Shown: piece by piece, positions 7,891 to 56,058 of the stretch | Position numbering within the stretch: position 1 is the stretch's first letter | Layout: each line of letters starts with the position of its first letter | DNA from: Mangrovicoccus sp. | Lineage (GTDB): Bacteria; Pseudomonadota; Alphaproteobacteria; Rhodobacterales; Rhodobacteraceae | Length of the DNA: 64,000 bases | Direction of reading: 5' to 3' | Assembly (NCBI GenBank): GCA_049603835.1 | Contig: JBMYSZ010000015.1 | Location: 19,576-83,575, forward strand | Position numbers and translations under genes: made by a program | The notes under the pieces: model-generated | What the model was told of the DNA's origin: nothing | What the model saw: only the letters and a program-made list of their open reading frames with translations | Databases searched by the model: none

Positions 7891-7891
7891 C

Positions 7892-36446: not shown

Positions 36447-36595
36447 AATCTCTGTAATGCGGCCGATTTTCCTTGTCATCGGCCTGTCACTCTCCTATAG
36501 GGGCCGCTCATCCACTACCTCCATCGGAATCAGGGTGACCCGCCGCGGATGCGGAATAGGGGCCTTCCGGTGACGTTGAACAAAGGAATAAGGCT

Positions 36596-36802
36596 ATGAA
36601 AGCCAGTGAACTGCGCGATCAGACCCCTGATCAGCTGCGCGAAAAGCTCGTAGAGCTGAAAAAAGAGGCGTTCAACCTCCGCTTCCAGCAGGCAACCAGC
36701 CAGCTTGAAAACACCGCTCGGGTTCGTCAAGTGCGCCGCGATGTTGCGCGCGTGAACACCATCTTGAACGAAAAAGCTGCAGCCGCAGCAGCGGAGGCTT
36801 GA
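36596..36802 (+). CDS. rpmC: 50S ribosomal protein L29
   Basis: 68 aa. [31 protein letters not shown]... is a typical L29 N-terminus. Confidence 0.93.
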
Positions 36803-36806
36803 TCTA

Positions 36807-37037
36807 ATGCCCAAAAGAATTCTGCAAGGCACTGTCACCAGCGCCAAAAACGACCAGACCGTCACTGTCCGCGTCGAGCGTCGCTTTAAGCACCCGGTTT
36901 TGTTGAAAACCATCAAGAAATCCAAGAAGTATCGCGCTCATGACGAGCAAAATACTTACAAGGAAGGCGATCAGGTTCGCATCATTGAATGCGCGCCGCG
37001 ATCCAAAACGAAACGCTGGGAAGTGCTGACCGCTTAA
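36807..37037 (+). CDS. rpsQ: 30S ribosomal protein S17
   Basis: 76 aa. [25 protein letters not shown]... is a typical S17 N-terminus. Confidence 0.95.
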
Positions 37038-37115
37038 GGTCAGCGCCTTTCAGTTTTTGCGAAACCCTGGGGCCAATGTCCTGAAAAGGCGACCCCAGTT
37101 GTCGGGAGAAACCAT

Positions 37116-37484
37116 ATGATCCAGATGCAGACTAACCTGGATGTTGCTGACAACTCCGGCGCGCGCCGAGTTCAGTGCATCAAGGTTCTGGGCGGATCCA
37201 AGCGTAAATACGCTTCTGTTGGCGACATCATCGTGGTGTCCGTGAAAGAAGCTATTCCGCGTGGCCGTGTGAAAAAAGGCGATGTCCGTAAGGCTGTTGT
37301 CGTGCGCACCGCTAAGGAAGTCCGCCGCGAAGATGGCACTGCCATCCGCTTTGACCGCAATGCTGCGGTTATCTTGAACAACAACATGGAGCCAGTCGGC
37401 ACCCGTATCTTCGGGCCGGTTGTTCGCGAACTTCGCGCGAAAAACTTCATGAAAATCATTTCGCTGGCGCCGGAGGTGCTCTGA
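37116..37484 (+). CDS. rplN: 50S ribosomal protein L14
   Basis: 122 aa. [28 protein letters not shown]... is a typical L14 N-terminus. Confidence 0.95.
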
Positions 37485-37485
37485 G

Positions 37486-37794
37486 ATGGCTGCGAAACTG
37501 AAAAAAGGCGATAAGGTTGTCGTTCTTGCTGGCAAAGACAAAGGCAAGCAGGGCGAGATCCAGTCGGTAGACCCGCAAGCTGGTAAAGCTGTGGTCGAAG
37601 GCATCAATATCTCGATCCGTCACACTCGTCAGAGCCAGCAATCCCAAGGCGGCCGCCTGCCAAAGGCGATGCCGATCCAGCTGAGCAACCTGGCGCTGGT
37701 TGATAGCAATGGCAAAGCAACCCGTGTTGGGTTCCGCTTTGACGACGAAGGCAAAAAAGTGCGCTTCGCCAAAACCACCGGGGAGGCCGTCTAA
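37486..37794 (+). CDS. rplX: 50S ribosomal protein L24
   Basis: 102 aa. [25 protein letters not shown]... is a typical L24 N-terminus. Confidence 0.95.
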
Positions 37795-38354
37795 TGCTGG
37801 ACGCAACCGAATACACCCCGCGCCTGAAGACGCTTTATCGCGAAACGATCCGCAGCAAAATGCAGGAAGAGTTTGGCTATAAAAACGTCATGCAGATACC
37901 GCGTCTGGAGAAAATCGTTCTCAATATGGGCGTTGGCGAAGCTGTAAACGACACCAAAAAGGTGAAATCGGCTCAGGAAGACCTGACCGCTATCGCTGGC
38001 CAGAAAGCTGTTGTCACCAAGGCGAAGAAATCCATCGCGGGTTTCCGGGTTCGTGAAGGCATGCCGCTGGGCACCAAAGTCACCCTGCGTGGTGATATGA
38101 TGTACGAATTCCTGGATCGTCTGATCACCATCGCGATGCCTCGTATCCGTGACTTCCGCGGCGTATCTGGCAAATCCTTTGATGGTCGCGGCAACTACGC
38201 CACCGGTCTGAAAGAGCACATCGTCTTCCCCGAAATCGACTTCGACAAAGTTGATAGCGTTCGCGGGATGGACATCATCATTTGTACCACCGCGCCGACT
38301 GACGCGGAAGCCAAGGCGCTGTTGAAGCATTTCAACATGCCGTTCAACAGCTAA
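37794..38354 (+). CDS. rplE: 50S ribosomal protein L5
   Basis: 186 aa. Confidence 0.95.
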
Positions 38355-38370
38355 GGCGAGGGGAATAGAC

Positions 38371-38676
38371 ATGGCTAAGAAATCCATGGTTGAGCGTGAA
38401 AAGAAGCGCCAGCGTTTGGTGGAAAAATACGCCGCCAAGCGTGCTGAGCTGAAAGAGATCGCCAATGACGAAGAGCGGCCGATGGAAGAGCGCTTCAAAG
38501 CGCGCCTGAAGCTGGCGAAACTGCCGCGCAACAGCTCGGCAACCCGTCTTCATAACCGTTGTCAGCTGACCGGTCGTCCGCATGCTTACTATCGTAAGCT
38601 GAAGGTCAGCCGTATCATGCTGCGCGAACTTGGCTCCGCTGGTCAGATCCCTGGCCTCGTGAAGTCTAGCTGGTAA
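38371..38676 (+). CDS. rpsN: 30S ribosomal protein S14
   Basis: 101 aa with the C-terminal [17 protein letters not shown]. Confidence 0.95.
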
Positions 38677-38690
38677 GGGAGGGACTGAAT

Positions 38691-39083
38691 ATGAACGATC
38701 CTCTCGGCGATATGCTGACCCGCATCCGCAACGCGCAGATGCGTCGCAAATCCACCGTGCGCAGCCCGGCGTCCAAGCTTCGCGCTTGGGTTCTCGATGT
38801 GCTGGCCGACGAAGGCTATATTCGCGGCTATGAAAAAGTGACCGACGAAAAAGGCCACCCGGCGCTGGAGATCAGCCTGAAATACTATGAAGGCTCTCCG
38901 GTTATCCGCGAGCTGAAGCGTGTTTCTACACCTGGTCGTCGCGTTTACACCGCTTCGCAAGAAATCCCGCAGGTTCGTCAGGGCCTGGGTGTTTCCATCG
39001 TGTCCACGTCGAAAGGCGTGATGTCGGATGCCAATGCTCGCCAAGCCAATATCGGCGGCGAAGTATTGTGCACCGTGTTCTAA
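38691..39083 (+). CDS. rpsH: 30S ribosomal protein S8
   Basis: 130 aa. [20 protein letters not shown]... is a typical S8 N-terminus. Confidence 0.95.
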
Positions 39084-39095
39084 GGGGGAAGACTT

Positions 39096-39629
39096 ATGTC
39101 TCGTATTGGCAAACGGCCGGTGGCGATCCCCTCTGGGGTCACGGCTGAGATCAAAGGCCAGGTTATTGAAGTTAAGGGTCCGAAAGGCTCTCGCAGCTTC
39201 ACCGCAACCGATCTGGTATCCATCACTCAGGAAGATGGTGCCATCACGGTTGAGCCGGCAAACAAAACCAAACGCGCGCGCCAGCAATGGGGCATGACCC
39301 GCACCATGATCGCTAATCTGATCACCGGTGTGACCGACGGTTTCAAGAAAGAGCTTGAGATCCAAGGTGTTGGTTATCGTGCTCAGATGCAGGGCAACAC
39401 TTTGAAACTGTCGCTGGGTTACTCCCATGACGTGAATTTCGAAGTGCCAGAAGGCATCACCGTGACTGCGCCGAAACCGACTGAGATCATTATCGAAGGT
39501 AATGACCAGCAGGTGGTTGGCCAGGTCGCCGCGAATATCCGCGAATGGCGTTCGCCGGAGCCGTATAAAGGCAAAGGCATCCGCTATAAGGGTGAATTCA
39601 TCTTCCGTAAGGAAGGTAAGAAGAAGTAA
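39096..39629 (+). CDS. rplF: 50S ribosomal protein L6
   Basis: 177 aa. [15 protein letters not shown]... is a typical L6 N-terminus. Confidence 0.95.
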
Positions 39630-39640
39630 GGACGAGCAGA

Positions 39641-40000
39641 ATGGCAAACAGCAAACGGGACCTGTTCCTGAAGCGCCGACTGCGCGTTCGGAACAAACTT
39701 CGCAAAATGGCCAATGGTCGGCCGCGCCTTTCGGTGCACCGCTCCAACAAAAATATCAGCGTTCAGCTGATCGACGATGTGGCGGGAGTAACCCTGGCTG
39801 CGGCGTCTTCGTTGGAAAAAGACCTGGGCATTGTGAACCAAAACAATGTGGAAGCAGCAGCCAAAGTTGGCGCGGCAATTGCCGAGCGGGCCAAGGCGAA
39901 AGGCGTCGAAGAATGCTATTTCGACCGCGGCGGTTTCCTTTTCCACGGCAAGATCAAAGCTCTGGCCGATGCAGCGCGCGAAGGCGGGCTGAAGTTCTAA
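39641..40000 (+). CDS. rplR: 50S ribosomal protein L18
   Basis: 119 aa. Confidence 0.93.
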
Positions 40001-40140
40001 TTGGAGAGGGCGGGGCATTTGCTCTGCCTTTTTCCACTTGTAGCGGGCGCTTTCGGGCGGCCGCTCGATGATCCGGGACCGTTTCGGTCACCGCGATTGA
40101 GCTAACAGGCTAAAAGCCCGTATTCAGGAGAATGCCACTC

Positions 40141-40716
40141 ATGGCAGAACGTGATAACCGCCGGGGTCGCGATCGCGACGAAACCCCGGAATTCGCAGAT
40201 CGTCTGGTTGCGATCAACCGTGTGTCCAAAACCGTAAAAGGTGGTAAGCGTTTCGGCTTTGCTGCTCTGGTGGTTGTGGGTGACCAAAAAGGCCGCGTTG
40301 GCTTTGGCAAAGGTAAAGCCAAAGAGGTGCCTGAAGCGATCCGTAAGGCAACTGAGCAAGCAAAACGCCAAATGATCCGCGTTCCGCTGCGCGAAGGCCG
40401 CACGCTGCACCATGACACTCAGGGCCGTTGGGGCGCTGGTAAAGTGGTTATGCGTACCGCACCGACCGGTACTGGTATCATCGCCGGTGGTCCGATGCGT
40501 GCCGTTTTCGAAATGCTTGGTGTGCAAGACGTTGTTGCGAAGTCCTTGGGCTCGCAGAACCCTTACAACATGATCCGCGCCACTTTGGATGGTCTGAAGC
40601 AAGAATCCAGCCCGCGCATGGTTGCCCAGCGTCGTGGTAAGAAAGTTGCTGACATCCTTCCGAAGCGTGATGAAGCACCGGCTGCAGACGCGGCTCCGGC
40701 CGAAGCTGAGGCATAA
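40141..40716 (+). CDS. rpsE: 30S ribosomal protein S5
   Basis: About 191 aa from [38 protein letters not shown]. The ORF track starts 9 nt earlier. Confidence 0.93.
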
Positions 40717-40727
40717 GGAAACGTCAC

Positions 40728-40919
40728 ATGTCGAAGAAAACCATCGTCGTTAAGCAGATCGGCAGCCCGATCCGTCGCCCAGAAAAACAGCGCAAAACGC
40801 TGATCGGCCTGGGCCTGAACAAGATGCACAAAACCCGCGAGCTGGAAGACACTCCTTCCGTGCGCGGCATGGTCAACTCGATCCCGCATCTGGTGGAAAT
40901 CGTCGAAGAGCGCGGCTAA
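40728..40919 (+). CDS. rpmD: 50S ribosomal protein L30
   Basis: 63 aa. [30 protein letters not shown]... is a typical L30 N-terminus. Confidence 0.93.
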
Positions 40920-40944
40920 TCCCTCTCTTTGAGCAAGAAATTAA

Positions 40945-40978
40945 GGGCCCTCTAGTGTAAGCTAGGGGGCCTTTTTCT
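40945..40978 (+). terminator. Rho-independent terminator after rpmD
   Basis: GGGCCCTCTAG-tgtaagc-CTAGGGGGCC followed by TTTTTCTTT. Confidence 0.6.
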
Positions 40979-41076
40979 TTGTGGGTCGGATTGGTTGTGG
41001 GGGGCCGTTCCGACCTATCGCCTATTGACCAATCCTCAAGCTGCAAGCCAGCTTAGGCGCATATGGGGGAAGAGAA

Positions 41077-41792
41077 TGTTCCAATTTCATGCCAAAGCCT
41101 GGGCTTTCGCGGCATTGCCGATACTGCTTGCGGGCTCGCCTTATGCGCAGCAGCCCCAAAATTGCACCGATGACGCTATGATCGTCTTTGATGGCTCGGG
41201 CTCCATGTCTGAGATGGGGTTTAACCAGCTTGATGAGCCCCGCATTTTTGAAGCCCGCCGCGCTCTGCGCCAGGTCATGCCGCGGGTAGAGAAATTCCGC
41301 CAAATTGGCCTGATCACCTATGGCCCCAGCCGTGGCGATATATGTGAAGGGGTAGAGCTGCGCTTCACGCCTCGAAAAGACGCCGCTTGGCCCGTGATCA
41401 CAACGATAGATGGGCTTCAGCCTGAGGGCGAAACACCGCTGACAGAGGCGGTGAGGCAAGCCGCAGAGGTGCTGACTGCCCGCGCCGCGAATGGGGTGGT
41501 TGTGCTGGTCACGGATGGCAAAGAAACCTGCGACGGGGCACCTTGCCAATTAGCGGCGCATTTGGCGGCGGATTGGCCGGGGCTAAGGGTGCATGTGATT
41601 GGTTTTAAGGTACGTGGCGACCGGTTTGATTGGGATGCCCAGGGGGTCAATGATTATACGGATGCCCAATCTCCGGCGCGCTGTTTGGCCGAGGCGACGG
41701 GCGGGGAATATGTGTCCGCTGAAACGGTTGAGCAGCTGATTGCAGCGCTACAAGTCACCCTTGGCTGCCCGCTTTTTGGGGCCCTTAGATAA
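41077..41792 (+). CDS. Secreted von Willebrand factor type A (vWA) domain protein
   Basis: Signal peptide MFQFHAKAWAFAALPILLAGSPYA. MIDAS-type motif DDAMIVFDGSGSM and a vWA fold. The ORF-track N-extension is unsupported. Confidence 0.6.
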
Positions 41793-41878
41793 AGCCTGGC
41801 GGATGCTGGATTGGGCACTGCGGGGCCCTAACCGCTCTGCACGCAAATCGGTGCAACTATCGAGAATGTTTAAGGGAA

Positions 41879-41954
<76 letters not shown>

Positions 41955-42322: not shown

Positions 42323-43117
42323 TTACGCGACAAGTTGCGTGCCGGTCCGCAGAAATCCCGAGGCAATGCCCGTGAGAACCGCAGAGGTTCGGTCGGTCAC
42401 GTCTAGCTTGCTAAAAATTCGGCGGGTCAGCGTATCGACTGTATGGCGAGACACCCCCATGATCTGGGCAATAGATGCCGTGCTTTTGCCGCAAGCGATC
42501 CATTCCAGGACTTCCTGCTCGCGTGCCGCTAAATGCAAATCCTGACCATTTGGCGTTTGGGTTTGGTTGCAAAATTTCAGATGGGCTGCTTGCAGGATCA
42601 GCTGCAATTCTTGCAGGCCCGTCTGGGACGGCAACTTATTCGGCGCAAAGCCCAGGCTCGCATAGCCATTGCGCAAATTCGGGCCAAATAGGCCCAAGGC
42701 AACACCATTGCTTAGCCCAGCCTGACGCCGTGCAACTAGTAATTTCTGTTGTTGCTCCGACAGATCTGTGAGTTGGCCGATTGTATGCCATGAGAAAGGC
42801 GCGCCGCTTCGCAAGGCCATCTCAACAATTGGGTCGAAGCGCACATAGCGGCAATCCACATATTCATCGACCCAGCTTTGCGGAAATCCTTCATGGATCA
42901 TGGTTGGGCCCCCACCTGGCGCAAGCTTGGCGGCGCCCAAGGGGTTATAATGGTGATAGCAAAGCTGCTCTGCACCCAAATCGGTCAGATAGCTTCTCAA
43001 CAAAGCCCAAAGGGACTCGGGGTCTGGGCTCTGAGAGATGCGGGCCAAAGCTGTTTGGATCGAAGCGATTGTCAATTGGATGTCCCAAGGCCGGGCACGC
43101 AGCAGGCAATAGGTCAA
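42323..43117 (-). CDS. LuxR-family transcriptional regulator (autoinducer-binding domain plus C-terminal HTH); LuxR solo
   Basis: 264 aa. C-terminal LuxR HTH (LTAREQEVLEWIACGKSTASIAQIMGVSRHTVDTLTRRIFSKLDV) with an N-terminal autoinducer-binding-like domain. No luxI-like gene is adjacent. Confidence 0.7.
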   Translation of the reverse strand: MTYCLLRARPWDIQLTIASIQTALARISQSPDPESLWALLRSYLTDLGAEQLCYHHYNPLGAAKLAPGGGPTMIHEGFPQSWVDEYVDCRYVRFDPIVEMALRSGAPFSWHTIGQLTDLSEQQQKLLVARRQAGLSNGVALGLFGPNLRNGYASLGFAPNKLPSQTGLQELQLILQAAHLKFCNQTQTPNGQDLHLAAREQEVLEWIACGKSTASIAQIMGVSRHTVDTLTRRIFSKLDVTDRTSAVLTGIASGFLRTGTQLVA

Positions 43118-43169: not shown

Positions 43170-43244
43170 TGGTGGGTGATAAGAGATTCGAACTCCTGAC
43201 ATCTTCGATGTGAACGAAGCGCTCTACCACTGAGCTAATCACCC
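43170..43244 (-). tRNA. tRNA-Val (anticodon CAC)
   Basis: Reverse complement GGGTGATTAGCTCAGTGGTAGAGCGCTTCGTTCACATCGAAGATGTCAGGAGTTCGAATCTCTTATCACCCACCA. Near-identical to the other tRNA-Val except for the anticodon loop and a few stem positions. Confidence 0.85.
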
Positions 43245-44472: not shown

Positions 44473-44549
44473 GCGGTTGTAGCTCAGTTGGTTAGAGTAC
44501 CGGCCTGTCACGCCGGGGGTCGCGGGTTCGAGCCCCGTCAACCGCGCCA
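44473..44549 (+). tRNA. tRNA-Asp (anticodon GTC)
   Basis: GCGGTTGTAGCTCAGTTGGTTAGAGTACCGGCCTGTCACGCCGGGGGTCGCGGGTTCGAGCCCCGTCAACCGCGCCA. Canonical cloverleaf with an encoded CCA. Confidence 0.9.
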
Positions 44550-46500: not shown

Positions 46501-47940
46501 GAGACTGTCCAGAATTCTGTGCCCTGGCGCTTTGATTACGCCATTGGGAAGCGGTCTTCGAACATGATTGCGAACTGGCTTTTAACGGCGTGCCATTCAC
46601 GCACTGAACGCTTCCACTCCTGAGAGGTAGCATTCAGCGCGAGATAGATCAATTTCGCTGCTGCCTCGTCGCTTGGGAGTGAGGAGGAACGGAAAACAAC
46701 GTGGGGTGTTGTTTTCCCGACGAACCCGCGCGTTCGGACAGCGCGGCGGATCTTTGAGTTCAGCGCTTCTATGGCATTCGTGGTGTAGATCAGCCTGTGG
46801 ACCTCGGGCGGATAGTCGAGGAACGGAACTACTTCGTTTCAGGCCCGCCGCCAGCTCGGCGCGATGGCCGGATATTTGGCGGCGAGGTCGCTATCTTCGA
46901 AATCGGCCAGCGCGGCCTCTGCGGCTTCGGCGTCCACGGCGGTATAGACGGCCTTCAGAGCCACAGCGACGGCCTTGCGATCCTTGTAGCTGGCGAAGCT
47001 CATTGAATGGCGCAGAAGATGGAGTAAGGCATTGGTCGCCATCGGTTCGAGACCGATGCCGAACGCAGGTTTGGACCTGGGTCTGGGGAAAGGCCGCCTC
47101 GATGGCCTGCGGGAAGCCCTTGAGGCCATCCACGACCGCGATGAGGATGTCCTGAGCACCCCGATTGCGCAGATCGTTCAGGACCTCTGCCCAGAACTTG
47201 GCCCCCTCATTGGCCTGGAACCACAGGCCCAGAACGTCCCGTGTGCCATCAGGCAGAATTGCCAGCGCCACGAAGACCGCTTTGTTCGAGACCGCGCCGT
47301 CGCTGCGAATGTTGACCCGGATCGCGTCCATGAATGAGGCGGACAAGACATCGTGGATGGCCCCGCGATGTCCCGCCGAATGACCGGATAGCACGGCTCC
47401 AAGGGTCGATTTTGCCACGCCGTTACCTCATCCATGACGGCGTCGGTGATTGCAGAAATCAGGCTCGGAGACGCCTCTATGCCGTAGATTTCTTCGATAT
47501 GGCCCTGGATCTCGCGGGTCGTCATGCCCCGCGCGTACATGCTGATGATCTTGGTGTCGAACTCGGGGAACCGGCGCTGATACTTGGCGATCAGCACCGG
47601 ATCGAAGCTGCCGTTGCGGTCGCGGGGAATGTCCAGAACCACCTTGCCATTGTCCGTTGTTACCGTCTTTGGGCTGGTCCCATTACGCCGGTTGGGCGGC
47701 TTGTTATGCCCCTCCGGCGGCGGATCGGCGCGTTCCTCAGTGAGATGTTGCTCCAGTTCAGTGCTCAAAGCGCGCTCTGCCAGCGCTTTGGTCAATTCCT
47801 GCAGAATCCCGTCTTTGCCGAACAGGTCACCGGGTGAGCGACCTGCCATCAGCTGGTCCAAAAGGTCTTTGTCGATGCTCATACGTGGGTCTCCTCATCT
47901 AAGAGCTACCACGCCAGGGCACAGAATTCCGGACAGTCTC
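46501..47940 (-). mobile_element. IS256-family insertion sequence (1440 bp) with 29-bp imperfect terminal inverted repeats and an 8-bp target-site duplication AGCCTTAG
   Basis: Left end GAGACTGTCCAGAATTCTGTGCCCTGGCG (46501-46529). The right end (47912-47940) is its reverse complement with one mismatch. AGCCTTAG sits directly outside both ends (46493-46500 and 47941-47948). Confidence 0.8.
46839..47882 (-). pseudogene. IS256-family (Mutator-like) transposase, disrupted by at least two frameshifts and C-terminally truncated
   Basis: Homologous segments lie in three different frames: 47178-47882 (MSIDKDLLDQLMAG...ARGMTTREIQGHIEEIYG...), 46891-47418 (...GAVSNKAVFVALAILPDGTRDVLGLWFQANEGAKFW...DGLKGFPQAIEAAFPQTQVQTC) and 46839-47159 (...SYKDRKAVAVALKAVYTA...). 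The last ~100 codons are missing. Confidence 0.7.
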
Positions 47941-48052: not shown

Positions 48053-49459
48053 TTAGCCCTGCAGTCCCGCCAGAATGCGCGCCCAGCTGCGGGTGCCTTT
48101 GTGGAAGCTCTCCAGATCATATTTCTCATTGGGCGAATGGATCTGGTCGTCATCGCGGCCAAAGCCCACCAGCATCGCATCCATGCCGAGATAGGTCTTG
48201 AAATAGCCGGCAATCGGGATCGAGCCGCCGCAGCCCACAAAAGCCGCCGGTTGCTGCCATTCCGCCGTCAAAGCCTCGCGTGCGATCTCGAATGCCGGAT
48301 GCTCCGTGCTCATCTGACCCGCAGGGGAGGCGCCATGATCGGCAAAGCTCACCTGGCAATCGCCTGGCACCATATCCCGCACCATAGCTCGGAAATTCTC
48401 GCGGATCGCATGCGGGTCTTGCTGGCCCACAAGGCGGAAGCTGATCTTGGCCGAGGCTTTAGAGGGCAGCACGGTCTTAAAGCCTTCGCCCGTATAGCCC
48501 GAGCTCATGCCATTGACCTCGCAAGTGGGCTCAGACCAGACCATTTCCAGCGGCAGCTTGCCTTGTTCGCCTGCGGGGTCTTTCAGCCCGACCTCGCCCA
48601 GGAAGCCGCCCGCGTCAAAACCCAGCCCCTCCCATTGGGCGCGCAGATCCCCGGGCAGGGGGGGCACGCCGTCATAAAAGCCCGGCACCGTCACCCGGCC
48701 CGTATCATCATGCAAGCTGGCGATAATCCGCGACAGCACCCGCGCCGGGTTCATCGCCAAACCGCCGAACATGCCCGAATGCAGATCTTTACTCGGCCCG
48801 GTAATGGTGACTTCCTCGCCCAAAAGCCCGCGCAGCTGAGTGACAATCGCCGGCACCGTATCGCGGAACAGACCCGTATCGCAGATCAACGCCACATCGG
48901 CTTTCAGCTCGTCGGCATTTTCCTTCATGAAAGGGATCAGCGAGGGCGAACCGCTTTCCTCTTCGCCTTCAAAGAAAATCGTGATCTTGCCGGGCAGATT
49001 GCCATGGACCGCTTTCCAGGCGCGGCAAGCTTCGACAAAGGTCATCAGCTGGCCCTTATCATCGGAACTGCCCCGACCACGCAAAACCCGGCCCTTGGGG
49101 GTTTCCTCGATCGCTGGATCAAACGGGTCGCGATCCCACAGCTCTAGCGGATCCACCGGCTGCACATCGTAATGGCCATAAAAGAGCAGATGCGGCCCGT
49201 CTCCTTCGCAATGGGCAACCACCATGGGATGGCCGGGCGTCGTGCGCTTGCTTGCCTCAAAGCCCAGTACTTGCAAATCCGCCACCAACCAATCGGCGGC
49301 CGTATCGCAATCGGCCTTATGCGCCGGGTCGGTGGAGATCGATGGGATTCGCAAAAGTGCCATCAATCTTTCCAGTGCGGCATCAAGATCGCTATCGATC
49401 TGGTCTAAAACACTGGCCAATTCAGAGGAGACTGCCATGGAGGGTTCCTTTTTCGTCAC
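48053..49459 (-). CDS. M20-family metallopeptidase/deacylase (ArgE/DapE/CPG2-like)
   Basis: 468 aa with the N-terminal metal-binding region (LLFYGHYDVQP...) and the M20 dimerisation/catalytic architecture. Confidence 0.75.
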   Translation of the reverse strand: MTKKEPSMAVSSELASVLDQIDSDLDAALERLMALLRIPSISTDPAHKADCDTAADWLVADLQVLGFEASKRTTPGHPMVVAHCEGDGPHLLFYGHYDVQPVDPLELWDRDPFDPAIEETPKGRVLRGRGSSDDKGQLMTFVEACRAWKAVHGNLPGKITIFFEGEEESGSPSLIPFMKENADELKADVALICDTGLFRDTVPAIVTQLRGLLGEEVTITGPSKDLHSGMFGGLAMNPARVLSRIIASLHDDTGRVTVPGFYDGVPPLPGDLRAQWEGLGFDAGGFLGEVGLKDPAGEQGKLPLEMVWSEPTCEVNGMSSGYTGEGFKTVLPSKASAKISFRLVGQQDPHAIRENFRAMVRDMVPGDCQVSFADHGASPAGQMSTEHPAFEIAREALTAEWQQPAAFVGCGGSIPIAGYFKTYLGMDAMLVGFGRDDDQIHSPNEKYDLESFHKGTRSWARILAGLQG

Positions 49460-49549
49460 AATTACACCAAAGTCTAGGCAGTCAGAGACGAAGGTCTAGG
49501 GGCAAACTTGCATCTGCAAAATGCTAAAGATTTCATCAGGAAAGCCGAA

Positions 49550-49563
49550 TTGATCCGGCTCAA
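49550..49563 (+). promoter_or_regulatory. Candidate FNR/FnrL-type box (TTGAT-CCGG-CTCAA) upstream of hemA
   Basis: 9/10 match to TTGAT-N4-ATCAA, about 150 nt upstream of the hemA start. Confidence 0.25.
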
Positions 49564-49705
49564 AGAGAAACTTTGACGAATATGCTTGCATTTTTGCGGC
49601 AAAATGCGTGCTGGTGCGTTCAGGGTTGGCGCCTAGCATATGTGACTTGAACTTCCTTCTCCGATTGTGTTTCGGTGGAGGCCCTTAAGCTATAGGTGAC
49701 GCCCC

Positions 49706-50929
49706 GTGGACTACACAGCTAAGCTCGAACTAGCCCTGGACCGCTTGCATCAAGAAGGTCGCTATCGGACTTTCATTGATATTGAACGCAAGCGTGGGCA
49801 GTTCCCCCATGCAACTTGGACCAAGCCCGATGGGTCCGAAAAGCCGGTGACCGTATGGTGTGGCAATGACTATCTGGGCATGGGGCAGCACCCTGTTGTG
49901 CTGGCGGCAATGCATGAGGCGATCGATGCCACTGGCGCAGGATCGGGCGGCACGCGCAATATTTCCGGCACCACAGTCTATCACAAGGCGCTGGAAGACG
50001 AGCTATCCGATCTGCATGGCACCGAAGCGGCGCTGCTGTTCACCTCGGCCTATATCGCCAATGACGCAACGCTTTCGACGCTGCCAAAGCTGTTTCCTGG
50101 GCTGATCATCATTTCGGATGAACTGAACCATGCCTCGATGATCGAAGGCATTCGCCATGGTCTGTGCGAAAAACATATCTTCCGCCATAATGACCTAGAC
50201 CATCTGCGCGAAATTCTGAGCCGCCTGGATCCCAAGGCCCCCAAGGTCATCGCCTTTGAATCGGTCTATTCCATGGATGGCGATTTCGGCCCGATCGAGG
50301 CGATCTGCGATCTGGCGGATGAATTCGGGGCGCTGACTTATATCGACGAAGTCCATGCGGTTGGCATGTATGGCGCCCGCGGTGGCGGCGTGACCGAGCA
50401 GCTGGGCCTGGCCCATCGCATCGACATCATCAATGGCACTTTGGGCAAAGCTTTCGGCGTGCATGGCGGCTATATCGCGGCTTCGGCCAAAATGTGCGAT
50501 GCGATCCGCTCTTATGCGCCGGGCTTCATCTTCACCACCTCGCTGCCGCCCAGTGTAGCAGCAGGGGCGGCGGCCTCGATCCGGCATCTGAAATCCGATC
50601 AGTCCTTGCGGGATCAACACCAAACCCAAGCGCGCATCTTGAAAACCCGCCTCAAGGGCATGGGTCTGCCGCTGATCGATCATGGCAGCCATATTGTGCC
50701 GGTGATCGTCGGGGATCCGGTGAAATGCAAAATGATCTCTGATCGTCTGCTGGACGAACATGGGATCTATGTGCAGCCGATCAACTTCCCCACGGTTCCG
50801 CGCGGCACAGAGCGTCTGCGTTTCACCCCATCGCCGGTGCATGGACCGAAGGAAATGGATGCTTTGGTGCAAGCGCTTGATTCGCTTTGGGCCCAATGCG
50901 CCCTGAACCGCCAGGCTCTTTCTGCCTAA
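49706..50929 (+). CDS. hemA: 5-aminolevulinate synthase
   Basis: 407 aa, closely similar to Rhodobacter HemA (MDY...[15 protein letters not shown]..., [16 protein letters not shown]..., and the PLP-lysine region SLGKAFG). Confidence 0.93.
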
Positions 50930-50962
50930 GCGCTGCATATTTAGTCAAATTGCGTGAATTAA

Positions 50963-50990
50963 GCGGATCCAAGCGGGTCCGCTTTTTCCT
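50963..50990 (+). terminator. Rho-independent terminator after hemA
   Basis: GCGGATCC-aagc-GGGTCCGC followed by TTTTTCC. Confidence 0.55.
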
Positions 50991-51130
50991 TTTATATCCA
51001 TATATCTAAGCCAGAACGGCTATGGGCGTGACTTTTGCTGCACGCTTTTGGGGAATTGTGGTAACGGTTCATTATATAAGCCGCGCTAGTCGAATCGCGG
51101 GGCACATGGGGAAACGGGCGGTTACATGGG

Positions 51131-52417
51131 ATGGATCCTATGACCGGGCGCAACCAAGCGCCCGAACACAGTTTAGACACTCAACCAAAGGGCTTTGACG
51201 AATACGAACTAGTCCTTGGTGATATTTTGCGCGGCGAACGGGCCACATTGGGCAAGTCCCTGTTGGATGTTCAGCGCGATATCAAAATCAAAGCCAGCTA
51301 TGTGGCGGCCATCGAGAATTGTGATCTCAGCGCTTTTGAAACGCCGGGATTCATCGCGGGCTATGTGCGGTCTTATGGGCGCTATCTGGGGCTCGAACCG
51401 GATCTGGTCTATCAGGCCTTCTGCGAAGAAAGCGGCTTTTCCCATGTGGAAGGGCTTGATGCGCAAGTCTATGCCAAACGCCCGTCGCAGCGCCGCCCCT
51501 CGCCAGCGGCGCGCCGGGCCGCGGCCAATAGCGATGCGGTTTTGGCGCGTAATCCGATCTATGCGGCGCCGCGCCAGAATGTCATGGCCGAAATTAAGCC
51601 CGGCGCAGTGACGTCTATCCTGACCCTTGGGCTGCTGCTGATTGGCTTGGGCTATGGCGGTTGGTCGGTTTTGCAAGAAATCCAGCGGGTCACTGTCGCG
51701 CCGCTTGATGGCCCGACGCAGGTCTTGGATGACGGTCCTGAAATTGCCGGTGTCGTGGATGTGGCGCCCAGCTCGGAACAGGCGGAGTTGCCCACTGCGC
51801 CAAGCGCGGAGGCTCTGGACCGGCTTTACCGTCCCAAAGCATTGGATGCGCCGGTTTTGGTGGCGCGGGATGGTCCGATTGCGAATATCGATCCGGCAAG
51901 CCAAGGGGTCTATGCGGCTCTGGCTCTGCCTCAAGCGGCCAGTGCTGCGGCGCAATATTCTTCACCCGCCGCGCCGCTCTCGGTGCTTGCGACAGCTGGC
52001 TTGCCCTTGCCCCCGGCGGAGCCGTTGCCAAATGGCCAAGTGCCAGAGGTGCAGGTTGTGGCCGAGGCCCCGCCCGAAGTGGTCATGTTCGCCCGCCGCC
52101 CGGTTTGGGTCCGCGTGCGCTCGGCGGATGGCACGGTTCTGCTAGAGAAAATCCTAGAAGAAGGGGAGCGTTACGTGCTGCCCCAAACGGAGCGCGCCCC
52201 AGTTTTGCGGGCTGGCAATTCCGGCTCGCTGTTCTTCGCGGTCAATGGCGAAACCATCGGGCCAGCAGGGCCAGGCGCCTCTGTGGCAAAGAATGTGTCC
52301 CTCGCCGCGGCGGATCTGACCGAGAAATATGGCCCGGCGAATTTAGACGCGGATCCCGAGCTGAAACGCTTGGCCGCCTTGGTCATTGCACCCGTAGAGC
52401 AGCAGAGCGGCGAATAA
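51131..52417 (+). CDS. rodZ: RodZ-like cytoskeleton protein (N-terminal HTH plus DUF4115-type C-terminus)
   Basis: The N-terminal HTH_XRE-like segment (LGDILRGERATLGKSLLDVQRDIKIKASYVAAIE) is followed by a TM segment, a Pro/Ala-rich linker and a C-terminal domain. Confidence 0.6.
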   Translation: MDPMTGRNQAPEHSLDTQPKGFDEYELVLGDILRGERATLGKSLLDVQRDIKIKASYVAAIENCDLSAFETPGFIAGYVRSYGRYLGLEPDLVYQAFCEESGFSHVEGLDAQVYAKRPSQRRPSPAARRAAANSDAVLARNPIYAAPRQNVMAEIKPGAVTSILTLGLLLIGLGYGGWSVLQEIQRVTVAPLDGPTQVLDDGPEIAGVVDVAPSSEQAELPTAPSAEALDRLYRPKALDAPVLVARDGPIANIDPASQGVYAALALPQAASAAAQYSSPAAPLSVLATAGLPLPPAEPLPNGQVPEVQVVAEAPPEVVMFARRPVWVRVRSADGTVLLEKILEEGERYVLPQTERAPVLRAGNSGSLFFAVNGETIGPAGPGASVAKNVSLAAADLTEKYGPANLDADPELKRLAALVIAPVEQQSGE

Positions 52418-52529
52418 GCCCAGCTGAAAACTTTGGGGGCGCGTTGCGATACGCCCCTAATCGGCCTATCTAGACGATAACTCACCGCAGCGCCTAACGC
52501 CAAAGCGCGCTGCCTGAATTCGCGGAACT

Positions 52530-53681
52530 ATGCCGACCATGAGCCTCAATCATATTCGCCCCTGGAAAAACATCTATCGCCGGGAAAGCCGTCAAATCCA
52601 TGTGGGCAATGTGCCTGTGGGGGGCGGTGCGCCGATTGCGGTGCAGACCATGACCAATACCGATAGCAGCGATGTGAAGGCGACTTTGGGCCAGGTGCTT
52701 GCTGCCGCTGAGGCTGGGGCGGATATTGTGCGGATCTCTACCCCCGATGAGGCGGCGACCAAGGCCCTGCATGAAATCACCCGCGAAAGCCCGGTGCCCA
52801 TCGTGGCCGATATCCATTTCCATTACCGCCGCGCCATTGAAGCGGCCGAGGCGGGGGCGGCTTGCCTGCGGATCAATCCCGGCAATATCGGCGATGAAAA
52901 GCGGGTCAAAGAGGTGATCCAAGCCGCCAAAGACCATGGCTGCTCGATCCGCATTGGCGTGAATGCCGGCAGCTTGGAAAAGCATCTGCTGGAAAAATAT
53001 GGCGAACCATGCCCCGATGCGATGGTTGAATCGGCGCTAGAGCATATCCGCATCCTCGAAGATAACGATTTCCGCGAATATAAGGTCAGTGTGAAGGCCT
53101 CGGATGTTTTCCTTACCGCCGCCGCCTATCAGGCTCTGGCCGAGGCCACAGATTGCCCGCTGCATCTGGGCGTGACCGAGGCGGGCGGCTTTGTGGCCGG
53201 CACGATCAAATCGGCGATTGGCCTGGGCAATCTGCTTTGGATGGGCATTGGCGATACGCTGCGGGTCTCGCTCTCTGCTGATCCGGTGGAGGAGGTGAAA
53301 GTCGGCTATGAGATTCTCAAATCCCTGGGCCTGCGCCATCGCGGGGTGAATATCATCTCTTGCCCTTCCTGCGCGCGGCAAGGTTTTGACGTGATTAAAA
53401 CCGTTGAGATCCTGGAAAAGCGGCTGGAGCATATCAAAACCCCCATGAGCCTTTCTATCATCGGCTGTGTGGTCAATGGGCCGGGCGAGGCGCTGATGAC
53501 CGATGTGGGCTTTACCGGCGGCGGGGCCGGGGCGGGCATGGTCTATCTGGCGGGCAAGCAAAGCCATAAGCTGAGCAATGACCAAATGGTCGATCATATC
53601 GTCGAGCAGGTCGAAGCCAAAGCCGCTGAAATCGAAGCCGCCACTGCCGCTGACGAAGAAACCGTAAACGCGGCCGAATAG
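52530..53681 (+). CDS. ispG: 4-hydroxy-3-methylbut-2-en-1-yl diphosphate synthase (flavodoxin)
   Basis: 383 aa. [24 protein letters not shown]... with conserved Cys ligands near the C-terminus. Confidence 0.93.
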
Positions 53682-53784
53682 CCTGTTTCTTGGCGTGGTG
53701 TGACGGGGCGTGACGTGACGGGGCCAGAAACGAAAAAGCGCGCCGCAATGGGCGCGCTTTGCAAAATTGCCGAAAGGCTCGGGC

Positions 53785-54567
53785 TCACTCGGCCCGGATC
53801 TGCTCCACCATGGCGAGCATCCCGTCAAAGGGCACATAGCCACGCAGCAATTCGTCTTCGAGAACAAAGGTCGGCGTGCCGCGGATTTGCAGCGTTTCGG
53901 CCAAAGCGCGAGTGGCGCGGATTTCGGCCAGAACCTCTTCGCTTTCCATTTTCGCCAGGATTTCCTTGTGATCAAGCCCGGCATTTTTCGCCACTTTCGC
54001 AAGCGCCGGTTCATTGGCCGAGCCGCGCATTGTGATCAGCTCTTCATGCACAGCGCCATAAGCCTCATCCCCATGCAGCTGCTTGATGGCGATGGCAAAT
54101 TTCGACGAGGCCAGGGAATCTTCGCCCAAGATTGGGAATTCTTTGACGATCAGACGAATATTGCCGTCAAAATCCAATAGCTTGGCCACATCCGCATGGG
54201 CTTTGCGGCAATAGCCACAGCGGTAATCCATGAACTCGACGATCGTGATATCCCCATCGGGATTGCCGCCAATCCAGGAAAACCCGTCATTGAAAATTGC
54301 CTCTGCATTATCGGCGATCAGATTGACTTCGGCGGCGGCTTGTTCGGCGGCTTGGCGCTCTTCCAGGGATTGGACGGCCTCTAGGATGACCTGTGGGTTA
54401 TCCATCAGATAGGCGCGGATTTCAGCGCGGAAAGCACTGCGCTCCGCATCGGACATATTGGACAGGTCAAAGCCAAGCGCCGGAGCGGCGCATAAAGCGG
54501 CCAGGCTGGTGGACAGGGCAAGAGCGCGGGCGGTGGTGAACATGGGGTAAGTCTCCTGGGTCATCAT
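53785..54567 (-). CDS. DsbA-family thiol:disulfide oxidoreductase
   Basis: Signal peptide and the thioredoxin-fold active site YRCGYC (ITIVEFMDYRCGYCRKAH). Confidence 0.7.
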   Translation of the reverse strand: MMTQETYPMFTTARALALSTSLAALCAAPALGFDLSNMSDAERSAFRAEIRAYLMDNPQVILEAVQSLEERQAAEQAAAEVNLIADNAEAIFNDGFSWIGGNPDGDITIVEFMDYRCGYCRKAHADVAKLLDFDGNIRLIVKEFPILGEDSLASSKFAIAIKQLHGDEAYGAVHEELITMRGSANEPALAKVAKNAGLDHKEILAKMESEEVLAEIRATRALAETLQIRGTPTFVLEDELLRGYVPFDGMLAMVEQIRAE

Positions 54568-55895: not shown

Positions 55896-56058
55896 TCGGG
55901 CTATCTGGGATCTCGATGGTTTTCTTGTGCATAGCGGGGCTCGGGGATTGGCCGCAAGCATTAGGGGGCGCTGATAGCCGTAACGTGATGCGCGGCAGCG
56001 CGCCGGTGCCTGCGTCGGGGCTGGGCGGCGCCGGGTTTTTAGGCTAAACTCCTGGAAA

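What the first reader, a model, noticed from the sequence alone, without database searches (positions are those of the whole stretch)
40920..41076. The spc operon terminates after rpmD; rplO-secY-adk and the alpha operon are absent downstream
- A clean rho-independent terminator (40945-40978) follows rpmD.
- The next genes are a secreted vWA protein, tRNAs and island-like genes, not rplO/secY/adk/rpsM/rpsK/rpoA/rplQ.
- Together with the two other interruptions, this genome shows unusual fragmentation of the ribosomal supercluster.
- The essential secY and rplO must lie elsewhere.
Basis: partly seen in the sequence, partly recalled or inferred. Interest (0 to 1): 0.5.

Follow-up and report, generated by a model that had tools for sequence, protein, structure and literature searches.

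The report
Ribosomal operon split after rpmD
In this marine Rhodobacteraceae genome the long ribosomal-protein operon does stop at a terminator after rpmD and its second half (rplO-secY...) lies on another contig, but the split is the normal, already described state of the whole family, here carried to full separation.

Summary
rpmD (40728-40919) is followed by a strong intrinsic terminator (14-bp hairpin 40943-40974 plus T-run). Next come a vWA gene, three tRNA genes, accessory genes and an IS. No rplO, secY, adk, rpsM, rpsK, rpoA or rplQ occurs anywhere in the 64 kb.

The "unusual fragmentation" reading is only partly right. In 80 Rhodobacteraceae genomes rpmD and rplO are never operon-tight: the gap is 117 bp to 6.4 kb (median 1.2 kb), and 8 of 70 informative genomes have no rplO within 9.7 kb. 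A terminator follows rpmD in 67 of 76. rplO carries its own promoter and a conserved structured leader. The spacer and the lack of co-transcription were shown for Ruegeria pomeroyi in 2012 (PMC3305630).

rplO-secY of what is very probably the same organism (a Mangrovicoccus sp. MAG) lies on a different contig, behind lon, a metallo-beta-lactamase-fold (MBL) gene and a YCII gene, with promoter-like sequence and leader present. A relative with an intact spacer (rpmD...vWA-MBL-rplO) places the break between vWA and MBL. A chimeric join at 40,950 is excluded by a second assembly of the same sequencing run.

Verdict: a new member of a known kind, of low interest. The rplO leader, absent from Rfam 15, is the most novel by-product.

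The parts
36472..36500 (+). Promoter-like site (CTTGTC, 17 nt, CTATAG) about 95 nt upstream of rpmC. It is the probable start of the unit that ends at the rpmD terminator.
   Evidence: It is the only match in the whole window to the family motif CTTGnn-N16-18-YTAWA. The same motif lies upstream of rpmC in 25 of 68 relatives and upstream of rplO in 51 of 62. It is found at 0 of 3 tight-junction controls and in 3 of 400 random windows. Function is inferred.
36596..40919 (+). The spc-proximal module: rpmC, rpsQ, rplN, rplX, rplE, rpsN, rpsH, rplF, rplR, rpsE, rpmD. All internal junctions are tight.
   Evidence: ORFs. NCBIfam identifies L18, S5 and L30. Homologues occur in 68-81 loci, with junction gaps of 0-132 nt in the window and similar values in relatives.
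40728..40919 (+). rpmD (L30), the last gene of the unit.
   Evidence: TIGR01308 rpmD_bact, E = 1.4e-24.
40943..40982 (+). Intrinsic terminator: 14-bp hairpin 40943-40974 with GUAA loop, then a T-run.
   Evidence: -23.8 kcal/mol for the hairpin alone. An equivalent hairpin plus T-run lies within 150 nt of the rpmD stop in 67 of 76 relatives, against 0 of 80 after rpsE and 17 of 400 random windows.
41076..41792 (+). vWA-domain protein, probably secreted. It is an old resident of the rpmD-rplO spacer in this lineage.
   Evidence: Pfam VWA/VWA_2. It is 72% identical to the vWA gene in the intact rpmD-rplO spacer of L170. It is 70-73% identical to the Mangrovicoccus ximenensis gene directly upstream of rplO. 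Homologues at 42-55% identity lie in the spacer of L002, L049 and L068, and directly after rpmD in L064, which has no rplO within 9.8 kb.
41793..41878 (.). Inferred rearrangement breakpoint interval, between the vWA stop and tRNA-Val. In the relative with an intact spacer, the MBL gene and rplO follow here.
   Evidence: L170 has the order vWA-MBL-rplO. The MBL gene next to this organism's rplO (L089) is 57% identical over its full length to the L170 MBL. No repeat, IS or tRNA scar is shared by the two junctions. The interval is an inference.
41879..41954 (-). tRNA-Val(tac).
   Evidence: ARAGORN and Rfam tRNA at 70.5 bits. Logan contig L001 ends 29 nt inside this gene.
42323..43117 (-). LuxR-family regulator with no adjacent luxI-type gene identified, lying between the two tRNA-Val genes.
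   Evidence: Sub-threshold NCBIfam matches to autoinducer-binding LuxR-type regulators such as SdiA and TraR.
43170..43244 (-). tRNA-Val(cac). Its first 60 nt are 92% identical to the other tRNA-Val gene, and the remaining 16 nt are identical.
44473..44549 (+). tRNA-Asp(gtc).
   Evidence: Logan contig L085 ends inside it.
46501..47940 (-). IS256-family insertion sequence, 1440 bp, with 29-bp terminal inverted repeats and an intact 8-bp target duplication AGCCTTAG. It is a simple insertion, not a rearrangement scar.
   Evidence: Inverted repeat I1; flanks read; Transposase_mut / IS256 hits for 47178-47882.
48053..63974 (.). Conserved core block: M20 peptidase, aminotransferase, RodZ-like, ispG, DsbA-like, M48-TPR, AmiC, PBP1A, prfB, DUF2189, M23. 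In relatives the part from the M20 peptidase to PBP1A is not linked to ribosomal genes.
   Evidence: Pfam. The same gene set from the M20 peptidase to PBP1A occurs in Plastorhodobacter daqingensis (L083) and Mesobacterium sp. (L084), without neighbouring r-protein or tRNA genes.

Best explanation
The feature at 40920-41076 is the 3' end of an autonomous rpmC-to-rpmD transcription unit in a Rhodobacteraceae genome (a MAG labelled Mangrovicoccus sp.).

In this family the ancestral spc operon is split at rpmD|rplO. The upstream half ends at an intrinsic terminator. The downstream half (rplO-secY-adk-rpsM-rpsK-rpoA-rplQ) has its own promoter and a conserved structured 5' leader. Co-transcription is therefore not needed, and the spacer between the halves tolerates insertions and rearrangements.

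In this genome the lineage's spacer (rpmD ... vWA - MBL - rplO) was broken between vWA and MBL by a chromosomal rearrangement. vWA stayed with rpmD and is now followed by tRNA genes, accessory genes and an unrelated core block. MBL, a YCII gene, the promoter-like sequence, the leader, rplO and secY now sit behind lon on another contig.

Shown: the gene content, the terminator structure, the family-wide pattern, and the location and leader of rplO. Inferred: termination in vivo, the ancestral order, and the breakpoint position. Unknown: the type of rearrangement.
For: 1. Terminator and gene content.

2. Family-wide split. In 62 of 80 Rhodobacteraceae loci rplO lies 117-6448 bp (median 1234) after the rpmD stop, never operon-tight. 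In 8 of 70 informative loci it is not within 9.7 kb or more. A terminator follows rpmD in 67 of 76, against 0 of 80 and 17 of 400 in controls. The spacer cargo is hypervariable: no gene family is present in more than 6 loci.

3. Autonomy of the rplO unit. The roughly 130 nt upstream of rplO are conserved (CTTGAT/CTTGCA, 17 nt, CTATACG, then a leader) even though the flanking DNA is unrelated. The leader hairpin shows covariation: 97% of cells paired, 71 double-change cells against 21 in shuffles, 0 of 500 shuffles as high. Covariance model R1 hits exactly once per locus, next to rplO, in 63 loci. It has no hit in the window and none in loci that lack rplO.

4. The modules move independently. 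In L013 the rpmC-rpmD module is inverted relative to both rplB-rplP and rplO-secY.

5. Experiment in a relative. RT-PCR in Ruegeria pomeroyi found no transcript joining rpmD to the spacer genes, or the spacer genes to rplO. A TransTerm terminator was predicted, and the spacer was noted as variable (0.1-1.5 kb) (PMC3305630).

6. This organism's rplO. P0245, labelled 'MAG: L15 [Mangrovicoccus sp.]', is on an NCBI contig of 92,449 bp. vWA and the M20 peptidase are on the 85,330-bp contig. Logan contig L089, from the same run SRR27204692, carries lon, MBL, YCII, the leader (R1 63 bits), rplO and secY. Its GC content is 0.568 against 0.567 for the window.

7. Ancestral order. L170 has rpmD ... PepSY(-) - vWA - MBL - rplO. 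M. ximenensis has PepSY(-) - vWA - promoter/leader - rplO. Identities to this organism are vWA 70-73%, MBL 57% and L15 77%.

8. The junction is not a chimera. L001 matches 40554-41907 at 100%.
Against: - There are no transcript data for this organism. The terminator's efficiency and possible read-through into the co-oriented vWA gene are unknown.
- Assigning L089 to the same genome as the window rests on the same sequencing run, the same NCBI organism label, equal GC content and a consistent divergence pattern. It does not rest on physical linkage.
- The MAG contig's path across three tRNA genes and the IS is not confirmed by the second assembly, because the three Logan contigs recovered end inside tRNA-Val(tac), tRNA-Asp and the IS; no contig spanning tRNA-Val(cac) was recovered.
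- Even so, lon-MBL-YCII directly upstream of rplO shows that the spacer is interrupted by a core gene whatever lies beyond tRNA-Val.
- No repeats, IS ends or integrase were found at either new junction, so the mechanism of the rearrangement is unresolved.
- MBL orthology at 57% identity, together with its position, is suggestive rather than proven.
Confidence: 0.8

Rival explanations
1. Assembly artefact. The MAG contig is a chimeric join, either at about 40,950, or at one of the tRNA genes or the IS further downstream. In the real genome rplO-secY would follow rpmD as usual.
For: The window comes from a metagenome-assembled genome. The three Logan contigs of the same run that were recovered end inside tRNA-Val(tac), tRNA-Asp and the IS, so the path across these repeats has no support from a second assembly.
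Against: L001 spans rpsE-rpmD-terminator-vWA and runs into tRNA-Val at 100% identity, with unique sequence on both sides of 40,950. The rplO attributed to this organism has lon-MBL-YCII for 2.9 kb upstream, not vWA or rpmD. rpmD and rplO therefore cannot be neighbours in the family-typical way, whatever the path beyond tRNA-Val. Eight of 70 relatives, including isolate genomes, show the same dislocation.
Confidence: 0.05
2. Simple large insertion. Nothing was relocated. A long stretch of DNA (more than 23 kb) was inserted into the rpmD-rplO spacer, and rplO lies further downstream on the same chromosome stretch, beyond the window.
For: Spacers of up to 6.4 kb exist in relatives. The 41.8-48 kb stretch has lower GC content (0.51-0.54), unknown ORFs and an IS.
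Against: From 48 kb on, the DNA is a conserved core block (ispG, PBP1A, prfB and others). The part from the M20 peptidase to PBP1A is syntenic with relatives, where it is not near ribosomal genes. rplO is preceded by the core gene lon in the same orientation and is on a different contig. Core genes on both sides mean a rearrangement of backbone DNA, not the gain of an island.
Confidence: 0.08
3. Rearrangement mediated by a mobile element. Either an IS256 copy or a tRNA-targeting integrative island caused the separation, by IS-IS recombination or by integrase action at tRNA-Val or tRNA-Asp.
For: Three tRNA genes and an IS256-family element lie within 7 kb of rpmD. tRNA genes are almost never found in the spacer of relatives: 1 of 37 loci scanned.
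Against: The IS has intact 29-bp inverted repeats and an identical 8-bp target duplication on both sides, so it inserted cleanly and has not recombined since. It also lies 4.7 kb from the inferred breakpoint. No integrase or recombinase domain was found in 41-48 kb. There is no direct repeat of a tRNA 3' end. No IS or tRNA remnant is present at the lon|MBL junction, and the two junctions share no sequence.
Confidence: 0.07

Closest known systems
The rpmD-rplO spacer of Ruegeria pomeroyi DSS-3 and its closest sequenced Roseobacter relatives (Christie-Oleza et al. 2012, BMC Genomics 13:73, PMC3305630)
   Same: A predicted Rho-independent terminator follows rpmD. Non-conserved genes follow it. 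rplO is transcribed separately, as RT-PCR showed no product across either junction. The spacer's size and sequence vary between species.
   Different: In R. pomeroyi rplO is still 1.8 kb downstream. Here the two halves are on different contigs, with core genes (lon on one side, the ispG-PBP1A-prfB block on the other) now flanking them. The 2012 paper did not describe dislocated genomes, the promoter or the leader.
The canonical spc operon of Escherichia coli and Bacillus (rplN ... rpsE-rpmD-rplO-secY-rpmJ/adk), followed by the alpha operon
   Same: Gene order and tight spacing from rplN to rpmD are the same. The downstream module keeps the order rplO-secY-adk-rpsM-rpsK-rpoA-rplQ in relatives.
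   Different: rpmD and rplO are co-transcribed and almost contiguous in E. coli (established knowledge). Here a terminator, a spacer and a separate promoter and leader divide them. rpmC-rpsQ are joined to the spc genes rather than to the S10 genes.
[quoted passage not shown]
   Same: The evolutionary logic is the same. [quoted passage not shown]
   Different: The events selected for detailed analysis in that paper lie between operons (rpoBC-str, str-S10) or at rplL-rsmC. Here the break is inside what is one operon (spc) in E. coli, and in a different class (Alphaproteobacteria).
L2-Alphaproteobacteria ribosomal-protein leader (Rfam RF03142; Eckert and Weinberg 2020, PMC7247131)
   Same: It marks another family-wide loose junction (rplW|rplB), where a module has its own leader. 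It is present in the window at 21065-21149. It is analogous to the leader found in front of rplO.
   Different: It is a different RNA with a different position. The rplO leader matches no Rfam 15 family and is not among the 20 leaders of that paper.

Membership tests
Intrinsic (Rho-independent) terminator | Stable G+C-rich stem-loop | tested here: met
   14-bp stem at 40943-40974 with 7 G-C pairs and a GUAA loop; -23.8 kcal/mol, z = -3.9, 0 of 200 shuffles as stable.
Intrinsic (Rho-independent) terminator | U-rich tract immediately 3' of the stem | tested here: met
   TTTTTCTTT overlaps the end of the stem at 40972-40980.
Intrinsic (Rho-independent) terminator | Lies just downstream of a stop codon on the coding strand, at a position conserved in relatives | tested here: met
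   It starts 23 nt after the rpmD stop. An equivalent element occurs in 67 of 76 relatives, against 0 of 80 after rpsE and 17 of 400 random windows.
Intrinsic (Rho-independent) terminator | Transcripts end there in vivo | not testable with these tools
   The only data are from a relative: no RT-PCR product across rpmD and the spacer in R. pomeroyi (PMC3305630).
Canonical contiguous spc operon (rplN ... rpmD-rplO-secY) | rplN to rpmD in the canonical order with tight junctions | tested here: met
   junction gaps of 0-132 nt.
Canonical contiguous spc operon (rplN ... rpmD-rplO-secY) | rplO and secY directly downstream of rpmD in one transcription unit | tested here: not met
   No rplO or secY anywhere in the window. 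A terminator follows rpmD. rplO is on another contig.
Roseobacter-type split spc (variable rpmD-rplO spacer) | Terminator after rpmD followed by lineage-specific, non-ribosomal genes | tested here: met
Roseobacter-type split spc (variable rpmD-rplO spacer) | rplO unit with its own promoter and leader | tested here: met
   L089 has a promoter-like CTTGCT ... GTAAAG and the leader (R1 63 bits, 2851-2916) directly before rplO. The motif occurs upstream of rplO in 51 of 62 relatives, and the leader was found in 63 loci.
Roseobacter-type split spc (variable rpmD-rplO spacer) | rplO still within about 0.1-6 kb downstream of rpmD | tested here: not met
   rplO is absent from the 23 kb downstream and sits on a different contig. 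This genome belongs to the 8-of-70 minority with full dislocation.
tRNA-associated genomic island | Integrase next to the tRNA gene and a direct repeat of the tRNA 3' end at the far border | tested here: not met
   No integrase or recombinase domain in 41-48 kb. No tRNA-derived direct repeat apart from the two paralogous tRNA-Val genes.
tRNA-associated genomic island | Deviant base composition | tested here: inconclusive
   GC is 0.51-0.54 at 42-46 kb, against 0.567 for the window as a whole. The shift is mild.
IS-mediated rearrangement | IS copy at the breakpoint, lacking matching target-site duplications | tested here: not met
   The IS at 46501-47940 has identical 8-bp duplications (AGCCTTAG) and lies 4.7 kb from the inferred breakpoint.
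Chimeric contig join at about 40,950 | The junction is not reproduced by another assembly of the data | tested here: not met
   Logan contig SRR27204692_740275 (L001) matches 40554-41907 at 100% with no gaps.
Known Rfam ribosomal-protein leaders (for the rplO leader seen in relatives) | Match to a curated covariance model | tested here: not met
   No hit at gathering score in L002, L008, L017 or L079. Only noise at E <= 10 in L049:13080-13240.

The most novel reading that the evidence does not exclude
The rpmD|rplO split of Rhodobacteraceae may be more than a passive spacer. It may reflect an old regulatory rewiring. Under this reading the rplO-secY-adk-rpsM-rpsK-rpoA-rplQ module gained its own promoter and a structured 5' leader: an invariant GCCG/CGGC stem, an internal loop, and a covarying 5-bp stem with a loop containing CGCU, ending 2-5 nt before the Shine-Dalgarno sequence. 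This RNA is absent from Rfam 15 and from the published r-leader sets I could check. It would be a new autoregulatory ribosomal-protein leader. Its existence would explain why the junction became a hotspot for insertion, inversion and, as in this window, complete dislocation.
Probability: 0.45. Interest if true: 0.5.

Novelty: new member of a known kind. Interest (0 to 1): 0.25.

Why it matters
For annotation and comparative genomics the lesson is practical. In Rhodobacteraceae the S10-spc-alpha supercluster should be treated as at least three separately transcribed, separately movable modules: rplB-rplP, rpmC-rpmD and rplO-rplQ. A missing rplO-secY after rpmD is therefore neither an assembly error nor a sign of an exceptional genome.

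The case also shows, in an alphaproteobacterial family, a principle described for Gammaproteobacteria and Bacilli: once units are uncoupled by an insertion, synteny decays to full disconnection.

The one element that could matter beyond this is the conserved, covarying leader in front of rplO. If it binds a ribosomal protein, it would add a new r-protein autoregulatory RNA in a well-studied marine group.

Tried and rejected
1. REP element at the junction. The 157-nt interval has no second copy in the window. The palindrome TGGGCAAATTGCCCA, found at 7 exact or near-exact sites plus a 1-nt-deletion variant at about 19941, is absent here.

2. Looking up the window's own rpmD, vWA and M20 proteins by exact sequence to fetch the parent NCBI contig. 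Only short Logan contigs were returned, so the 85,330-bp and 92,449-bp NCBI contigs could not be read.

3. Synteny of the 41.8-64 kb ORFs with the 10 kb downstream of rpmD in 80 relatives. There were no hits at all, so the downstream DNA is not shared spacer cargo.

4. tRNA genes as a common spacer feature. Only 1 of 37 loci has one.

5. Testing a single-inversion model (lon|tRNA-Val as the ancestral partner junction). A metagenome scan with the MBL protein returned only homologues at 38% identity or less. A literature search for lon-hupB-tRNA-Val linkage found nothing. No fetched locus contains lon or the window's LuxR, SMR or GT2 genes. The model remains untested.

6. Orthology of all vWA hits. 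A second Mangrovicoccus MAG carries a 65%-identical vWA gene in a different context (gatCA-lactamase-vWA-DUF1489-nrd). The family therefore has paralogues, and only the 70-73% hits next to rplO or rpmD were used for the reconstruction.

7. Two exact-sequence look-ups (P0165, P0126) were not on record.

8. My first terminator script under-counted (54 of 79), because stems that run into the T-tract were missed. It was replaced by the version with controls.

Full report
**1. What is in the window**

The window is a stretch of the ribosomal/RNA-polymerase supercluster of a Rhodobacteraceae bacterium:
- rplKA, rplJL, rpoBC, rpsLG, fusA, tuf;
- rpsJ through rplW;
- [1.2-kb insert];
- rplB through rplP;
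- [12.8-kb insert];
- rpmC, rpsQ, rplN through rpsE, rpmD.

rpmD (40728-40919) is confirmed by TIGR01308. Twenty-three nt after its stop lies a 14-bp hairpin with a GUAA loop (40943-40974), running into TTTTTCTTT. The hairpin alone folds at -23.8 kcal/mol, and none of 200 shuffles is as stable.

After the terminator come:
- a 238-aa vWA-domain protein with a hydrophobic N-terminus (41076-41792);
- tRNA-Val(tac);
- a LuxR-type regulator;
- tRNA-Val(cac);
- an unknown ORF and an SMR transporter;
- tRNA-Asp;
- further unknown ORFs and a GT2-like gene;
- an IS256-family element.

From 48 kb to the window end the genes are core genes: M20 peptidase, aminotransferase, RodZ-like, ispG, DsbA-like, M48-TPR, AmiC, PBP1A, prfB, DUF2189 and M23.

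tblastn with L15, SecY, Adk, S13, S11, RpoA and L17 from relatives finds nothing in the 64 kb.

**2. Is the junction an assembly artefact?**

Exact-sequence look-ups show that the window comes from an NCBI MAG labelled Mangrovicoccus sp., on a contig of 85,330 bp.

Logan contigs are a separate assembly of run SRR27204692. They match the window at 100%:
- L001 = 40554-41907;
- L085 = 44522-47052;
- L082 = 47910-50152.

L001 crosses rpsE, rpmD, the terminator and vWA, and runs into tRNA-Val. A chimeric join near 40,950 is therefore excluded.

The three Logan contigs recovered end inside tRNA-Val(tac), tRNA-Asp and the IS. The MAG's path across those repeats, and across tRNA-Val(cac), is not confirmed by the second assembly. 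Section 5 shows that the main conclusion does not depend on it.

**3. How unusual is it?**

I fetched 80 Rhodobacteraceae loci centred on rpsE, with 10 kb on each side.

*The rpmD|rplO junction.* rpmD and rplO are never operon-tight.
- In 62 loci the gap is 117-6448 bp, with a median of 1234 bp.
- In 8 of 70 informative loci there is no rplO within 9.7 kb or more.
- A hairpin plus T-run lies within 150 nt of the rpmD stop in 67 of 76 loci. The controls give 0 of 80 after rpsE and 17 of 400 random windows.
- The spacer cargo is hypervariable: no gene family occurs in more than 6 loci.

*All junctions compared.* The same analysis shows exactly three loose junctions in the family:
- rplW|rplB: median 262 bp, up to 2.4 kb;
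- rplP|rpmC: median 2.2 kb, up to 6 kb;
- rpmD|rplO.

Every other junction is tight. The window's three interruptions sit at these three sites. They are only larger than usual: 1.2 kb, 12.8 kb and full dislocation.

*An independent inversion.* In L013 the rpmC-rpmD module is inverted relative to both rplB-rplP and rplO-secY. The modules therefore rearrange independently.

*Prior publication.* Christie-Oleza et al. 2012 (PMC3305630) described the following for Ruegeria pomeroyi:
- a 1.8-kb region between rpmD and rplO;
- a TransTerm terminator after rpmD;
- no RT-PCR product between rpmD and the spacer genes, or between those genes and rplO.

**4. Why the split is tolerated**

Upstream of rplO, about 130 nt are conserved in nearly all relatives, although the DNA further upstream is unrelated. 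The conserved stretch has four parts:
- a promoter-like CTTGAT/CTTGCA, 17 nt, CTATACG;
- a variable hairpin;
- a hairpin made of an invariant GCCG/CGGC stem and a 5-bp stem rich in compensatory changes;
- the Shine-Dalgarno sequence, directly after the second hairpin.

Covariation is strong. 97% of cells are paired, against 83% in shuffles. There are 71 double-change cells, against 21 in shuffles. No shuffle out of 500 reaches the observed score, and slid registers collapse to 26-51% paired.

A covariance model (R1) hits once per locus, directly before rplO, in 63 loci. These include L013, on the inverted strand, and loci not used for training. R1 has no hit in the window and none in loci lacking rplO.

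No Rfam 15 family matches. The RNA is also not among the 20 leaders of Eckert and Weinberg 2020.

The promoter motif CTTGnn-N16-18-YTAWA is found:
- upstream of rplO in 51 of 62 loci;
- upstream of rpmC in 25 of 68;
- at none of three tight-junction controls;
- in 3 of 400 random windows.

Its only occurrence in the window is at 36472, about 95 nt before rpmC. The unit that ends at the terminator therefore probably runs from about 36.5 kb to 40.98 kb. The rplB module has the known L2-Alphaproteobacteria leader (window 21065-21149).

**5. Where rplO and secY are, and where the break lies**

*Closest relatives of the vWA gene.* The closest named homologue of the window's vWA protein is in Mangrovicoccus ximenensis (70-73% identity). 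There it sits directly upstream of the rplO promoter, leader and rplO-secY, and rpmD is not within 10 kb (L086).

*The rplO of this organism.* A search with the M. ximenensis L15 returned P0245. It is labelled 'MAG: 50S ribosomal protein L15 [Mangrovicoccus sp.]' and is on an NCBI contig of 92,449 bp, not 85,330 bp. It also occurs in Logan contig L089, from the same run SRR27204692.

L089 carries, in one orientation:
- the C-terminal part of lon, with its own terminator;
- a metallo-beta-lactamase-fold (MBL) gene;
- a YCII gene;
- a promoter-like sequence and the leader (R1 63 bits);
- rplO and secY.

Its GC content is 0.568, against 0.567 for the window.

*A relative with an intact spacer.* An ENA contig from a related organism (L170) still has the complete spacer: rpmD, four genes, PepSY(-), vWA, MBL, rplO. 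Its identities to this organism are:
- vWA, 72% to the window's;
- MBL, 57% over full length to the L089 gene;
- L15, 77%;
- L30, 92%.

*The reconstruction.* The simplest reading is an ancestral order rpmD ... vWA - MBL - promoter/leader - rplO. In this organism it broke between vWA and MBL. The break intervals are window 41793-41878 and L089 1160-1319. In M. ximenensis vWA remains directly upstream of rplO, and rpmD is not within the 10 kb upstream of it.

*Robustness.* lon is a core gene that was never seen in the spacer of relatives, and it now directly precedes MBL-YCII-rplO. The dislocation therefore holds even if the MAG contig were wrong beyond tRNA-Val.

**6. Mechanism of the rearrangement**

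The mechanism is unresolved.
- The IS256-family element (46501-47940) has 29-bp inverted repeats and identical 8-bp target duplications. It inserted cleanly and did not mediate the event.
- No integrase and no tRNA-derived direct repeat is present.
- The two new junctions share no sequence.
- A single inversion joining vWA|MBL with lon|tRNA-Val is possible.

**7. Verdict**

The inference that rplO and secY lie elsewhere is confirmed, and the genes have been located.

The claim of unusual fragmentation is not supported at family level. This is the Rhodobacteraceae-typical split spc cluster, described in 2012, in its less common (8 of 70) fully dislocated form.

It is a new member of a known kind, and its interest is low. 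The conserved rplO leader, absent from Rfam 15, is the most novel thing met on the way. It lies outside the window.

Noticed in passing
Relatives, e.g. L049:13163-13230, L002:16083-16150, L086:11006-11069, L089:2851-2916 (not in the window): There is a conserved structured 5' leader directly upstream of rplO in Rhodobacteraceae, preceded by a promoter-like CTTGAT, 17 nt, CTATACG. It has strong covariation, occurs once per genome locus and always travels with rplO. It matches no Rfam 15 family and is not in the Eckert and Weinberg 2020 leader set. It is a candidate new ribosomal-protein leader.
   Followed up: partly
window 21065-21149 (+) and 3634-3722 (+): Two known cis-regulatory RNAs are present. 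The L2-Alphaproteobacteria r-protein leader lies just before rplB (48.1 bits). The Rhodo-rpoB RNA lies just before rpoB (49.6 bits).
   Followed up: no
window 20126-20960 (+): A low-GC (0.45) two-gene insert lies between rplW and the L2 leader/rplB. It encodes a SocA/Panacea-domain protein (169 aa) overlapping a 128-aa ORF with a hydrophobic stretch and no Pfam match. This looks like a Panacea-type toxin-antitoxin pair dropped into the rplW|rplB spacer.
   Followed up: partly
window 7930, 16537, 23839, 23926, 34972, 36390, 36430 (15-nt sites), plus a variant near 19941: The REP-like palindrome TGGGCAAATTGCCCA recurs in intergenic spots of the cluster: rpoB|rpoC, fusA|tuf, after rplP, before rpmC and after rplW. 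Both strands together give 15 matches, against 0.3 expected. None is at the rpmD junction.
   Followed up: partly
window 46501-47940; also 46387-46414 and 47988-48015: An IS256-family element has 29-bp terminal inverted repeats and an 8-bp target duplication AGCCTTAG. Its transposase is split over at least two ORFs, so it may be frameshifted. It sits between two copies of a 28-nt GC-rich palindrome (GAGCCACCGGGTCGGGGCCCGGTGGAGC).
   Followed up: partly
window 23825-36595: The 12.8-kb insert at rplP|rpmC carries HxlR, GAPDH, an MFS transporter, unknown ORFs, DUF697, SPFH/Band7, a periplasmic binding protein and a 2OG-Fe(II) oxygenase (35059-35700). The oxygenase has homologues in 59 of the fetched loci, and lies between rplP and rpmC in the 28-29 loci where both flanks could be measured. 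It is therefore an old spacer resident.
   Followed up: partly
L013 (MAG, Paracoccaceae) 1-19515: The rpmC-rpmD module is inverted relative to rplB-rplP (16870-19515, minus) and to leader-rplO-secY (3-1275, minus). The 2OG-Fe oxygenase stays with the rplP side. This is a clean example of inversion between the two loose junctions.
   Followed up: yes
window 41879-43244: Two tRNA-Val genes (anticodons tac and cac) are 92% identical over the first 60 nt and identical over the remaining 16 nt. They lie in direct orientation, 1.29 kb apart, and flank a LuxR-type regulator with no adjacent luxI-type gene identified.
   Followed up: no
window 40001-40131 (rplR|rpsE): The in-operon spacer between rplR and rpsE is long for a tight operon: 132 nt here, 55-320 nt in relatives, and over 100 nt in 67 of 79. 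It might hold a further regulatory element.
   Followed up: no
window 1285-2157 (+) and 12431-13078 (+): There are further non-ribosomal genes inside the supercluster. An acyltransferase-3 family gene lies between rplA and rplJ. An SH3-domain protein lies between rpoC and rpsL. Whether these insertions are family-wide was not checked.
   Followed up: no
L086 (Mangrovicoccus ximenensis) 1356-8565: A contractile-injection-system gene cluster (sheath, tube, baseplate gp25, PAAR-like) lies a few kb upstream of vWA-rplO-secY in M. ximenensis, where rpmD would be expected.
   Followed up: no
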